Source: Eledone cirrhosa | Taxonomy: Eukaryota | Assembly (NCBI GenBank): GCA_964016885.1 | Contig: OZ024745.1 | Location: 15,190,001 to 15,254,000, forward strand | DNA: 64,000 bases | Direction of reading: 5' to 3' | Part shown: in pieces, positions 2,037 through 11,239 of the stretch | How the letters are laid out: each line of letters begins with the position of its first letter | Numbering within the stretch: the first letter of the stretch is position 1 | Notes under the pieces: model-generated | The model's input: the letters and a program-made list of their open reading frames with translations, nothing else | Told to the model about the DNA's origin: nothing | The model's database searches: none | Made by a program: the position numbers and the translations under genes

Positions 2037-3830
2037 AAATAAAGGATTATGAGTTCATGCAATTGACTTATGTTTCGTCACTATATATATATATATGTGT
2101 GTGTGTATATATATATATATATATATATATATGTATGTATATATATGTGTATATATATATATATATATATGTATATATATGTTTATGTGTATGTGAGTAT
2201 GTGAGTGTATATATATATATATATATATATGTGTATATATATATATGTGTGTGTGTGTATATGTATGTATATTTGTATATATGTGTATATGTGTATATAT
2301 ATGTATATGTGTGTGCATGTGTATGTGTATGTGTGTATAATTTTAGTAAGTAAGTTAATTTTTATAATTTTCTTATTTTACGTCTCTCATTATTGTTCTG
2401 CATCCCCACACAGAGTTACTAAGACAAAACCTATATATTTGCTGGCATAGGTATGCATCTGTATATATATATTAGTAGATGTACTAATTCTTTATAATTA
2501 TCTCCAAATTATTTTGTCGAGCCAAAATTGGCCAAAGCTGCTGCTATAGTTCATAGTAACAGTTCGGCTGCTATAGTTCATAGTAACAGTTCGGCTGCTG
2601 TCTTCTTAACAAACCACTCTTCACTGATTGACCTCGATGTCACGTGATTGATTCTTTTGAATTTGCCACCGACGCAGTAGGCAGTGATTTTTTCAATGGC
2701 TTGGAACTTAGTCCACGCTTTGCTTTTTTCCATCCACTGAATTATTTTGGTATAAGTTCCCTGTGTCCACGTATTGCCTGGAAACTTAGCTGAGAATAGA
2801 CTTCCCTGATGACGAAAGGCTTCTCCGTAAGTTTCTTCGGAAACTATGTTTATTCCCTTTCAGAAACTAATTAGTTGGAGTGAAATTTTAGTAAGTGAGT
2901 TAATTTTTATAATTTTCTTATTTTACGTCTCTCATATATATATATATATATATATATATATATATATATATATATATATATATATATATATATATATATA
3001 TATATATATATGTATATATATATAAATACATAATCGGAGAAAGTTAATAGCGATACTCCGGTCAAATACCAAGTCACTCAACAAACATTAGGAAATACCT
3101 GAGTATATTCCTAATTAAACGTTCGGGGTGCTAACTCATTGTATTGTGTGGAAAATTGGCTGTATTATTTTATATGAGATATATCAAATATATCATTTCC
3201 CAGACGACTCGTTTCATTATAAGATTTCTACAAGTTGGGTGAAATTATACCAAGTTATGTAGAAGCTTGTATAAGATTAACAGATACTTATTCAAGTGGG
3301 CACTTATAATTCCTCAGTGGGTAACCTAATAATATTAATATTGATAACAAAATCAACATCAATATTTAGCGATAATCACCATCAGTGCTTGAAGGAGCTG
3401 CCAAGTTGTTAGTCAAGCAGTTCTAAAGAAAATCTCACACTGTCTCGAATATATATATATATATATATATATATAAGTAAGTGTGTATATGTGTATACGT
3501 ACATACATATATGTATACAGACGTACAGTAGCATGCATATGTATATAAATATATATATATATATATATATATATATATATATATATATATATATAAATAT
3601 ATATATATATATATATATATATATATATATATATATATATATATATATATATACATACAGGTACACATACATATATGCACGTATCAGTTTAGCGGACGCT
3701 TATTATAACGCCGCTTTGTTCGTTTGTAAACAAACTGAACAGCCTGAATTTTTTTATGCCGTACGGTGTTAAGGCAACCACGTCACCTTTTTTTTTTTTT
3801 TTTTTTTTTCGTTCAACACTGACACAGGAA

Positions 3831-3871
3831 CGATGTACTAGTTTCAAGCTTGTTAGCTATCATCAGCACCG
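3831..3871 (-). ncRNA. Minimal type I hammerhead ribozyme
   Basis: Minus strand CGGTG-CTGATGA-t AGCT aaca AGCT t-GAAA-C TA GTA-CATCG; palindromic ACTAGT stem III, GUA triplet. Confidence 0.85.
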
Positions 3872-4309
3872 TATACCCATCTGCCAGATAGTTGAACGTT
3901 CGAAAGTATATACTTTCCTTATGAAAATTAACGGCTGAGCAGCCTAATTTGCATATCGAGTGAGCTAAGTCGGTCAGGTATACCGAAAACGATAAGTTGA
4001 AATAAAATGAAAACGAAATTTCATTTCTCACTCTTAGTACGGCACTTACTTAAATGTAAGTATGTGTGTATACGTACATACATATATGTATACAGACGTA
4101 CAGTAGCATGCATATATATATATATATATATATATATATATATATATACATACAGGTACACATACATATATGCACGTATCAGTTTAGCGGACGCTTATTA
4201 TAACGCCGCTTTGCTCGTTTGTAAACAAACTGAACAGCCTGAATTGTTATGCGTACGGTGTTAAGGCAACCACGTCACCTTTTTTTTTTGTTCAACACTG
4301 ACACTGGAA

Positions 4310-4350
4310 CGATGTACTAGTTTCAAGCTTGTTAGCTATCATCAGCACCG
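4310..4350 (-). ncRNA. Minimal type I hammerhead ribozyme
   Basis: Identical to 3831-3871, offset by 479 nt. Confidence 0.85.
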
Positions 4351-4883
4351 TATACCCATCTGCCAGATAGTTGAACGTTCGAAAGTATATACTTTCCTTA
4401 TGAAAATTAACGGCTGAGCAGCCTAATTTGCATATCGAGTGAGCTAAGTCGGTCAGGCATACCGAAAACGATAAGTTGAAATAAAATGAAAACGAATTTC
4501 ATTTCTCACTCTTAGTACGGCACTTACTTAAATGTAAATGCAAATTAGGCTGCTCAGCCGTTATAATAAGCGTCCGCTAAACCTTTACGTGCATATATGT
4601 ATGTGTACCTGTATGTATATATATATATATATATATATATATATATATATATATATATATATATATATATATATATATATATATATATGCATGCTACTGT
4701 ACGTCTGTATACATATATGTATGTACGTATACACACATACTTACATTTAAGTAAGTGCCGTACTAAGAGTGAGAAATGAAATTTCGTTTTCATTTTATTT
4801 CAACTTATATATATATATATATATATATATATATATATATATATATATATATATATATATATAGGAATATATATATATATATA

Positions 4884-9650: not shown

Positions 9651-9691
9651 CGATGTACTAGTTTCAAGCTTGTTAGCTATCATCAGCACCG
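9651..9691 (-). ncRNA. Minimal type I hammerhead ribozyme
   Basis: Identical to 3831-3871. Confidence 0.85.
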
Positions 9692-10186
9692 TATACCCAT
9701 CTGCCAGATAGTTGAACGTTCGAAAGTATATACTTTCCTTATGAAAATTAACGGCTGAGCAGCCTAATTTGCATATCGAGTGAGCTAAGTCGGTCAGGTA
9801 TACCGAAAACGATAAGTTGAAATAAAATGAAAACGAAATTTCATTTCTCACTCTTAGTACGGCACTTACTTAAATGTAAGTATGTGTGTATACGTACATA
9901 CATATATGTATACAGACGTACAGTAGCATGCATATATATATATATATATATATATATATATATATATATATATATATATATATATATATATATATATATA
10001 TATATATATATATATATATATATATACATACAGGTACACATACATATATGCACGTATCAGTTTAGCGGACGCTTATTATAACGCCGCTTTGCTCGTTTGT
10101 AAACAAACTGAACAGCCTGAATTGTTATGCGTACGGTGTTAAGGCAACCACGTCACCTTTTTTTTTGTTCAACACTGACACTGGAA

Positions 10187-10227
10187 CGATGTACTAGTTT
10201 CAAGCTTGTTAGCTATCATCAGCACCG
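10187..10227 (-). ncRNA. Minimal type I hammerhead ribozyme
   Basis: Identical to 3831-3871, 536 nt from its partner. Confidence 0.85.
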
Positions 10228-11239
10228 TATACCCATCTGCCAGATAGTTGAACGTTCGAAAGTATATACTTTCCTTATGAAAATTAACGGCTGAGCAGCC
10301 TAATTTGCATATCGAGTGAGCTAAGTCGGTCAGGCATACCGAAAACGATAAGTTGAAATAAAATGAAAACGAATTTCATTTCTCACTCTTAGTACGGCAC
10401 TTACTTAAATGTAAATGCAAATTAGGCTGCTCAGCCGTTATAATAAGCGTCCGCTAAACCTTTACGTGCATATATGTATGTGTACCTGTATGTATATATA
10501 TATATATATATATATATATATATATATATATGCATGCTACTGTACATCTGTATACATATATGTATTACGTATACACACATACTTACATTTAAGTGAGTGC
10601 CGTACTAAGAGTGAGAAATGAAATTTCGTTTTCATTTTATTTCAACTTATATATATATATATATATATATATATATATAGGAATATATATATATATATAT
10701 ATATAGGAATAAGTATGACCCCCCACGGCAGAGCTCAAGCCGTTTTGACGGCTAATTTAGTCCAGAAATACCCATCGAAACGGGTTGAGCTCTGCCGTCG
10801 GCTCATATATTTCCCACTCTACTACCATAAGTATTGAGTACTCTGGTCCGTTATGGTCCATCTGGTTCCTTACCACAATTCCTTTCTTATATATATATAT
10901 ATATATATATATATATATATATATATATATATATATATATATATATATATATATATACATATACATACATATACACACATAAACACATACATACACATAT
11001 ATACACATAGTCAAAAAAATATAAAAAAATATAAAGAAAAAAAAAATATATATATATATATGTATATATATATGTATATATATATTTTTTTTTCTTTATA
11101 TTTTTTTAATATTTTTTTGTCTATGTGTATATATGTGTCTATATGTGTTTATGTGTGTATATGTATGTATGTGTGTGTGTATATATTTTTGTATATGTAT
11201 ATGTATGTGTGTGTTTGTATGTATGTGTGTATGTATGCT

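What the first reader, a model, noticed from the sequence alone, without database searches (positions are those of the whole stretch)
3475..10650. Retrozyme-like tandem repeats with six identical minimal hammerheads and a variable (UA)n tract inside each monomer
Seen: three pairs of minus-strand HHRs (3831/4310, 6721/7218, 9651/10187) spaced 479, 497 and 536 nt apart. The spacing difference comes almost entirely from an internal (TA)n tract, and the monomer has no coding capacity. Known: metazoan non-LTR retrozymes are tandem minimal type I HHR repeats with palindromic stem III that cleave as dimers, yield circular RNAs and are thought to be mobilised by PLEs. Inference: a dimeric transcript would release a ~0.5 kb monomer that can circularise and carries a microsatellite, so it could spread (TA)n seeds.
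Basis: partly seen in the sequence, partly recalled or inferred. Interest (0 to 1): 0.75.

Follow-up and report, generated by a model that had tools for sequence, protein, structure and literature searches.

The report
TA-targeted hammerhead retrozyme, locally triplicated
The six predicted self-cutting RNA motifs here come from one insertion, later copied three times on the spot, of a non-coding jumping repeat with about 28,000 such motifs in this animal genome; it sits in TA repeats and is likely copied from a small RNA circle by a Penelope-type retrotransposon enzyme, and its own TA tract adds too little DNA to be a major source of TA repeats.

Summary
Observation confirmed, with corrections. 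Six identical 43-nt type I hammerheads lie on the minus strand. The spacings 479/497/536 are 442/442/441 nt plus TA tracts of 37/55/95 nt. But the three pairs are one two-armed insertion inside a local 2.9-kb triplication. The motif fits the canonical metazoan hammerhead, not the 'minimal' one.

The family is dispersed: 10,672 exact cores and 28,412 relaxed matches. In 54 unselected clusters, 68 of 73 fixed 3' ends abut (TA)n (control 14%). Of 32 two-armed copies, 21 pair a short end with a tailed end, and none pairs like with like. This is a Penelope-type footprint, and a young Hydra-type Penelope with intact ORFs shares it. Arrays are internally uniform, and only 1 of 92 breakpoints lies near the cleavage site, which points to rolling-circle copying of one circular monomer (inferred). 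No coding parent was found in 93 regions.

Tract length depends on subfamily, and the tracts add about 0.05% of the genome, so microsatellite seeding is minor. Cleavage and circles are untested. The scan reported this system earlier on other DNA of this genome. Verdict: a new non-LTR retrozyme family.

The parts
3475..4808 (.). Two-armed retrozyme insertion, copy 1: minus-strand arm (short 3' end at ~3475, two ribozyme monomers, 5' break at 4537) joined back-to-back to a plus-strand arm ending in the tail at ~4808
6406..7702 (.). Copy 2 of the same insertion (local triplication)
9340..10650 (.). Copy 3 of the same insertion (local triplication)
3830..3872 (-). Type I hammerhead (helix I 6 bp, helix II 4 bp plus U-U, palindromic ACUAGU helix III, GUA triplet); predicted cut after 3836
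4309..4351 (-). Type I hammerhead; predicted cut after 4315
6720..6762 (-). Type I hammerhead (triplicated copy)
7217..7259 (-). Type I hammerhead (triplicated copy)
9650..9692 (-). Type I hammerhead (triplicated copy)
10186..10228 (-). Type I hammerhead (triplicated copy)
3836..4314 (-). Cut-to-cut monomer, 479 nt, the predicted circle; 66% paired, z -9.5 (-5.9 with the tract trimmed)
4112..4152 (-). Internal (UA)n tract at the tip of a long predicted hairpin; the equivalent tracts are 7002-7060 and 9932-10030
4538..4808 (+). Inverted arm without ribozyme (jumps from unit position 130 to 333), with its own tract and the 67-nt tail (about 4741-4808)
3449..3474 (.). (TA)n flank at the short end, read as target
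4809..4883 (.). (TA)n flank at the tail end, read as target
2338..5077 (.). Unit 1 of the local tandem triplication (unit 2: 5245-7973; unit 3: 8159-10888), holding this insertion and three other repeat families

Best explanation
This is a non-coding tandem hammerhead repeat (non-LTR retrozyme) that sits in (TA)n at thousands of places and is likely copied there by a Hydra-type Penelope RT/GIY-YIG protein from a predicted ~420-540-nt RNA circle; in this window one insertion was later triplicated with its neighbours. Steps: (1) read-through transcription of an array (inferred). (2) Two ribozymes pair through the ACUAGU palindrome and cut after GUA (predicted; geometry shown). (3) The monomer is ligated into a circle (inferred from known retrozymes). 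(4) The PLE endonuclease nicks a (TA)n tract, and the RT primes at two fixed sites on the RNA about 60-65 nt apart, one per DNA strand; the fixed ends and the short-plus-tail pairing are shown, the enzyme is inferred. (5) The RT runs around the circle, giving uniform arrays, and the two cDNA arms join back to back (uniformity and breakpoints shown, circle inferred). (6) After insertion, long pure tracts slip in length. The tract is tolerated because (UA)n is self-complementary and only lengthens a hairpin (predicted).
For: Copy number. Unselected sample: 53 regions behind the first 100 exact matches gave 54 clusters from 52 regions (L073, a divergent subfamily, did not cluster); 24 had one ribozyme, 30 had 2-9, and 32 were two-armed. 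Fixed ends followed by (TA)n: 29 of 31 short ends and 39 of 42 tail ends, against 13.6% of random positions in the same loci. Of 32 two-armed clusters, 21 were short+tail, 0 short+short, 0 tail+tail, and 11 had one end in the tract or elsewhere. PMC8557442 describes inverted 5' copies and a one-sided tail as PLE hallmarks and (TA)n insertion for Hydra. A PLE with RWT, DKT, CxCX5C, CxxC and CxH motifs has 821-aa stop-free frames in 3 of 11 new loci, 98-99% identity among full-length hits, and its own hammerhead. Of those 11 loci, 8 end at a short end and 1 at a tail end, all 9 next to TA; 2 ends were not found. One template per array: median divergence is 0.85% within an arm, 1.59% across the inversion and 5.38% between arrays; 12 of 32 arrays carry fixed variants absent from the rest of the sample, and 7 of these span the inversion. 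Tract length is also uniform in some arrays (L099 six of 19 nt, L105 seven of 17 nt, L046 five of 40 nt). Only 1 of 92 5' breakpoints lies within 5 nt of the cut. Between subfamilies 82-85% identical, the ribozyme changes only at N7, in loop II and by a G-U to U-G flip in helix I (95 vs 35 locus counts). Dimer geometry scores -19.0 kcal/mol against -2.2 for two monomers.
Against: No cleavage, ligation or RT assay exists for this family. In bioRxiv 10.64898/2026.07.22.740005, 8 of 9 predicted Xenopus dimers did not cleave in vitro. In the circular MFE the inner helix I pairs have probability of only 0.13-0.20. Among the most similar copies, the ribozyme core is no more conserved than the rest (0.57% vs 0.67%). 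Tract length did not correlate across the inversion in the main family (permutation p=0.19). Only 46 of 97 monomers had their nearest neighbour strictly in their own array (20 ties). 'Private' variants may belong to unsampled subfamilies. The retrozyme shares no sequence with the Hydra-type PLE beyond TA-like words, and several PLE families coexist, so the exact partner is not pinned. Seamless joints to PLE sequence (L044, L047; L030 and L192 untypable) and to another hammerhead family (L038, L061) fit template switching, but they also fit insertion next to an older element with target deletion; L081 does not fit the short+tail rule.
Confidence: 0.75

Rival explanations
1. Same PLE-driven insertion, but the template is an uncleaved linear read-through transcript of a donor array. 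The hammerhead is weak or only trims the transcript, and no circle is needed.
For: Breakpoints that ignore the cut site fit an uncleaved multimer equally well. Metazoan hammerheads of this kind often cleave poorly (PMC4209133 passages; 8 of 9 inactive in 10.64898/2026.07.22.740005).
Against: Subfamilies diverge while each array stays uniform, including across the inversion, which needs a one-monomer bottleneck. Arrays reach 9 units (L053) and about 20 at one place although 5' truncation shortens each copy. The ribozyme is held by structure-neutral changes only.
Confidence: 0.15
2. The unit is the pseudo-LTR of a rare coding PLE, and the arrays are partial tandem ends of that element.
For: Half of Xenopus retrozyme families resemble PLE ends (10.64898/2026.07.22.740005), and 24 of 54 clusters hold a single ribozyme.
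Against: No recurring ORF-to-unit junction was found in 53 unselected regions or in 40 regions chosen for ribozyme variants, many of them singletons. All 40 aligned to the same non-coding unit. The unit closes on itself head to tail.
Confidence: 0.06
3. The arrays grow by local DNA processes (unequal crossing-over, gene conversion) after single-copy insertions, as a satellite would.
For: The window itself shows a local 2.9-kb triplication, and L016 has variants shared by only some monomers.
Against: Arrays end at the two fixed RNA positions and are joined back to back with shared variants across the inversion. Tandem DNA duplication does not make inverted arms with a one-sided tail.
Confidence: 0.04

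Closest known systems
Metazoan non-LTR retrozymes (Cervera and de la Pena 2020, PMC7229834; parts 2-4 of 6 read, covering Results and Discussion)
   Same: Short low-GC tandem units, one type I hammerhead each, non-coding, predicted self-paired circle. The U-U at the base of helix II matches axolotl HHR_Amex2, and the palindromic helix III matches HHR_Amex1.
   Different: Units here are 420-540 nt with an internal (UA)n hairpin tip. Insertions target (TA)n and have two fixed 3' ends and inverted arms; the paper has no hits for 'microsatellite' or 'inverted'. Expression and cleavage were shown there and are untested here.
Retrozymes as non-autonomous PLE derivatives (Li, Clavereau and Pollet 2026, 10.64898/2026.07.22.740005; parts 1-3 of 5 read, supplements closed)
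   Same: Proposes PLE machinery as the mover; unit sizes of 51-972 bp include this one.
   Different: Its evidence is co-occurrence and pLTR sequence similarity. Here there is no sequence link to the candidate PLE, and the link is the insertion footprint.
Hydra-clade Penelope-like elements (Craig et al. 2021, PMC8557442; passages and section 11 read)
   Same: (TA)n targeting, hammerhead near the 3' end, inverted 5' copy and one-sided tail. The candidate partner has the CxCX5C, DKT, CxxC and CxH motifs.
   Different: The retrozyme encodes nothing. Its tail is about 65 nt (30-40 bp in the paper), and its short end lies about 260 nt past the cut against about 40 nt in the PLE.
Non-autonomous Chlamys elements such as MRC1 (PMC8557442, passage read)
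   Same: [quoted passage not shown]
   Different: They resemble their autonomous partners at the 3' end, and most Chlamys lack canonical hammerheads.

Membership tests
Metazoan non-LTR retrozyme | Type I hammerhead in each unit of a tandem repeat | tested here: met
Metazoan non-LTR retrozyme | Unit of a few hundred bp, GC under 45-50% | tested here: met
   420-540 nt, 35% GC; above the 150-450 bp of PMC7229834 for the main family, inside the 51-972 bp of the 2026 preprint
Metazoan non-LTR retrozyme | No protein-coding capacity | tested here: met
   longest Met-started frame 85 aa in the doubled monomer
Metazoan non-LTR retrozyme | Dispersed, multi-copy, dimers to multimers | tested here: met
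Metazoan non-LTR retrozyme | Highly self-paired circular fold | tested here: met
   prediction only: z -9.5, or -5.9 with the tract trimmed; 7 of 131 pairs change on both sides among 6 representatives of essentially two lineages, no shuffle control
Metazoan non-LTR retrozyme | Self-cleavage in vitro, better as a dimer | not testable with these tools
   only energies computed
Metazoan non-LTR retrozyme | Expressed as linear and circular RNA | not testable with these tools
   needs RNA from the organism
Metazoan non-LTR retrozyme | No PBS/PPT; target-site duplication longer than 4 bp when present | not tested
   (TA)n flanks hide duplications; PBS/PPT not searched
min-HHR (PMC4209133) | No helix III; helix II 7-8 bp; helix I 4-5 bp | tested here: not met
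   helix I 6 bp, helix II 4 bp, helix III 1-2 bp palindromic
Pseudo-LTR of a coding PLE | Unit regularly joined to an RT-EN ORF | tested here: not met
   no recurring junction in 53 + 40 regions
PLE-type insertion | Inverted 5'-truncated copy, tail on one end only, microsatellite bias | tested here: met
Hydra clade (candidate partner PLE) | C-terminal EN with CxCX5C linker, CxxC and CxH, DKT, RWK-like motif, hammerhead, (TA)n insertion | tested here: met
   read by eye from the L142, L145 and L152 translations; RWT in place of RWK (against section 11)
Hydra clade (candidate partner PLE) | Generally under 3 kb | tested here: not met
   about 2.4-kb ORF plus about 1.1-kb 3' non-coding part
Hydra clade (candidate partner PLE) | Placement in the RT tree | not tested

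The most novel reading that the evidence does not exclude
The insertions record a Hydra-type Penelope enzyme copying a ribozyme-made RNA circle from both strands of a nicked (TA)n tract at two fixed RNA sites, and sometimes switching between its own mRNA and the circle within one insertion (L044, L047). The retrozyme is a pure trans-parasite with no sequence debt to its host PLE, and it carries a (UA)n hairpin tip that can itself serve as a third priming site. This would be direct genomic proof of the proposed PLE-retrozyme cycle and would name an intact enzyme, a substrate and the exact ends to expect in vitro.
Probability: 0.4. Interest if true: 0.75.

Novelty: new member of a known kind. 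Interest (0 to 1): 0.52.

Why it matters
Which enzyme moves animal retrozymes, and whether it copies a circle, is proposed but not shown in the papers read (PMC7229834 Discussion; the 2026 preprint says the mechanism remains to be elucidated). PLE priming, the one-sided tail and microsatellite bias also lack an in vitro system (PMC8557442). This family gives exact predictions: a 420-540-nt substrate, two priming sites about 65 nt apart, a (TA)n target, and a young PLE with an intact ORF in the same genome. The microsatellite-seeding idea matters little in bulk, though each monomer of the pure-tract subfamilies does add one unstable tract.

Tried and rejected
Rfam: no gathering-score hit in the window. 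In e-value mode the top hits were miRNA families matching TA hairpins, which were rejected. Sequencing runs: no RNA holder listed. The triplication could not be tested with reads, because only contigs are held and they do not span it; whether it is real or partly an assembly or haplotype artefact is open. One search aligned out-of-register stretches and was discarded; it was redone, which left out 9 single-member clusters. The DNA search with the PLE's AT-rich 3' end found nothing, not even itself, so it was uninformative; the ORF part was used instead. Pfam scan of 8 window PLE/LINE fragments: GIY-YIG for 16125-16799, RVT_1 plus an endonuclease for 39333-42662, a weak RVT_1 for 27631-28245, and nothing for the other five. 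The idea that loop-variant singletons are pseudo-LTRs of a coding parent was rejected. The idea that tract length rises with age: no correlation with divergence (Spearman 0.13, p=0.20), only more scatter around 40 nt (0.36, p=0.0002), confounded by subfamily. The idea that the 2.9-kb unit was copied in one rolling-circle event is unlikely, because the three units are unevenly diverged and their other repeats have only 93-94% matches elsewhere. Chimeras as proof of template switching: 4 of 5 typable joints obey short+tail, which is not beyond a coin toss, so they are kept as leads only. Literature searches (listings and abstract starts only, apart from the four papers read) showed no report of a TA-targeted retrozyme with an internal microsatellite or PLE-type double ends; subscription papers and bioRxiv supplements were not visible. 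'Octopus' was a guess from composition, and the organism was not identified. A sequence look-up of earlier scan notes found nothing.
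Full report
OBSERVATION. A scan of both strands for CTGANGA finds six identical minus-strand motifs at 3866, 4345, 6756, 7253, 9686 and 10222. Each reads: helix I arm ACGGUG, core CUGAUGA, a U-U pair, helix II AGCU/AGCU with loop AACA, GAAA, the palindrome ACUAGU, the cut after GUA, and helix I arm CAUCGU. The spacings 479, 497 and 536 reduce to 442, 442 and 441 nt once TA tracts of 37, 55 and 95 nt are removed. By the definitions in PMC4209133 (passages) this is the canonical metazoan type I form, not the min-HHR. 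Rfam misses it at gathering score.

LOCAL CONTEXT. Self-BLAST shows 2150-10960 to be a tandem triplication of about 2.9 kb. With TA runs masked, units 1 and 2 differ at 1 of 2,294 sites and unit 3 at 10-15 sites plus indels. Another repeat in the unit has 100% matches only in these three copies and 93-94% elsewhere, so the triplication is local. It may be partly an assembly artefact, which could not be tested. Each unit holds one insertion: a minus-strand arm with two ribozyme monomers starting at (TA)n near 3475, joined at 4537/4538 to a plus-strand arm that skips the ribozyme and ends 67 nt into the next unit, again at (TA)n. So the window holds one event, not three.

THE FAMILY. The exact 32-nt core occurs 10,672 times in the 3.0-Gb genome (control 0), and a relaxed pattern 28,412 times (control 2). 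I fetched all 53 regions behind the first 100 exact matches, all from the first 69 Mb of contig C1. Fifty-two regions gave 54 clusters; L073 belongs to a second subfamily and did not cluster. Ribozymes per cluster: one in 24, two in 15, three in 8, four in 5, seven in 1 and nine in 1; 32 clusters are two-armed. The 85 3' ends fall at a short end (31), a tail end 55-68 nt further on (42), inside the tract (7) or elsewhere (5). (TA)n follows 29 of 31 short ends and 39 of 42 tail ends, against 13.6% of random positions in the same loci; it follows 11 of 23 5' ends. Of the 32 two-armed clusters, 21 pair short with tail, none pairs like with like, and 11 have one end in the tract or elsewhere. PMC8557442 (passages) lists an inverted 5' copy, a tail on one end and microsatellite bias as PLE features. 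Related sequence also lies in contigs of two other coded organisms (X5, 2 contigs; X6, 30 contigs).

IS THE RIBOZYME UNDER SELECTION? Among 52 near-identical copies the core decays as fast as the rest, as expected after insertion. Between subfamilies that are 82-85% identical, 240 motifs differ systematically only at N7, at one loop II base and at helix I pair 2.3:1.3, which flips from G-U (95 locus counts) to U-G (35). A consensus fold of six representatives has 131 pairs: 7 change on both sides, 20 on one side, 13 only break and 91 are invariant. This is essentially two lineages with no shuffle control. The monomer's helix III costs energy (-1.1 kcal/mol with it, -6.5 without), while the dimer form scores -19.0, which fits dimer-dependent cleavage. 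Cleavage itself is untested.

TEMPLATE. Monomers of one array share their subfamily marks. Median divergence is 0.85% within an arm, 1.59% across the inversion and 5.38% between arrays. Twelve of 32 arrays carry fixed variants seen nowhere else in the sample, and 7 of these span the inversion. Against this, only 46 of 97 monomers are strictly nearest to their own array, with 20 ties. Only 1 of 92 5' breakpoints lies within 5 nt of the cut, and no 3' end class lies there. The template is therefore continuous across the cut and derives from one monomer sequence per event. A ligated circle read more than once explains both. An uncleaved multimer explains the breakpoints but fits less well with uniform arrays in diverging subfamilies. 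The circular monomer is predicted to be 66% paired (z -9.5; -5.9 with the tract trimmed).

THE TRACT. It sits at the tip of a long hairpin whose arms are TATG/CATA-rich. In the main family 125 tracts span 14-256 nt, median 46. One subfamily has a G/C-interrupted tract that stays at 40-42 nt. The second subfamily has mostly 15-19 nt, uniform within arrays such as L099, L105 and L108. The window's copies have a pure tract that differs even between triplication units 1 and 2. Length is more alike within arrays than by chance (permutation, 0 of 5,000), but not across the inversion (p=0.19). An upper estimate of tract DNA is 28,412 x 50 nt, or 0.05% of the genome, while TA runs make up 5.6% of the rest of this window. 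The flanking TA does not come from the tract: the fixed ends lie away from it, and a PLE without a tract has TA flanks too. Empty sites were not available.

PARTNER. No recurring junction between the unit and an ORF was seen in the 53 regions or in 40 more chosen for ribozyme variants, so it is not the pseudo-LTR of a common coding element; a rare parent is not excluded. Two clusters, L044 and L047, join without TA to the same coding PLE. That PLE has 3,349 candidate places and 98-99% identity among full-length hits. Three of 11 new loci hold an 821-aa stop-free frame with RWT, DKT, CxCX5C, CxxC and CxH motifs, matching the Hydra description. It has its own hammerhead and the same short and tail ends at (TA)n. 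It shares no sequence with the retrozyme beyond TA-like words. L047 is PLE short end plus retrozyme tail, and L044 is the reverse. L038 and L061 join the retrozyme tail arm to the short end of another hammerhead-like family. L081 does not fit the rule, and L030, L050 and L192 cannot be typed. Insertion beside an older element with target deletion gives the same joints half the time, and L047 lacks only 31 nt of its own short end, so these joints are leads, not proof.

COMPARISON. It works like, and on every feature testable here is, a metazoan non-LTR retrozyme (PMC7229834, parts 2-4 read; 10.64898/2026.07.22.740005, parts 1-3 read). Cleavage and circular RNA, the functional criteria, remain untested. 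The (TA)n targeting, the double ends and the internal tract were not found in the searches made. Earlier notes of this scan describe the same footprint for hammerhead repeats elsewhere in this genome; one concerns a 484-nt unit that may be this family, which I did not verify. These notes are not independent support. The end rule, array uniformity and breakpoint test were obtained before that look-up; the Hydra lead came from it and was tested here.

VERDICT. A real, very abundant new retrozyme family with a clear PLE footprint. Confidence in the full mechanism is 0.75 and interest 0.52.

Noticed in passing
window 3200-3325 (-), repeated in the other two units: Another type I hammerhead (CUGAGGA at 3317, GAAAC at 3215, GUC triplet) whose helix II encloses a 79-nt insert; it belongs to a dispersed repeat with 3,449 candidate places, and the pattern is kept in L196 and L197.
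   Followed up: partly
window 4884-5077: Short two-armed element of a further family (z -7.5 hairpin) with the same short and tail ends at (TA)n; 1,378 candidate places; copies are about 200 bp back-to-back 3' tips.
   Followed up: partly
window 2338-2932 (+): A further repeat with a degenerate hammerhead-like motif at 2806, ending at (TA)n, with its end sequence repeated 545 nt upstream; in unit 3 a 16-nt deletion and a core change affect the motif.
   Followed up: partly
window 1984 (+), 49745 (-), 55323 (+): Hammerhead-like motifs whose helix III is itself an (AT)n run.
   Followed up: no
window 24796 (-) to 30088 (+): Decayed PLE (RT and EN fragments at 27092-28535) framed by long inverted arms, each with a hammerhead-like motif, one arm with a tail.
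   Followed up: partly
window 33752 (-) and 33811 (+); 12955, 17807, 18558: Further back-to-back hammerhead-like pairs; those near 16125-17665 accompany a PLE with a Pfam GIY-YIG hit.
   Followed up: no
window 39333-42662 (-): 1,109-aa stop-free frame with AP-type endonuclease and RT hits, a LINE; decayed relatives lie at 45.2-47.4 kb and 58-63.8 kb.
   Followed up: partly
tails of the retrozyme (window 4741-4808), L142, L109, L081: Tails of several TA-targeting families contain GAGTG or GAGTA about 23-35 nt past the short end, often pairing with an upstream ACTC; a post hoc, weak lead for the RNA signal the PLE protein recognises.
   Followed up: no
G000:C1:53361723-53370559: An array of about 20 units of the second subfamily, the longest seen.
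   Followed up: no
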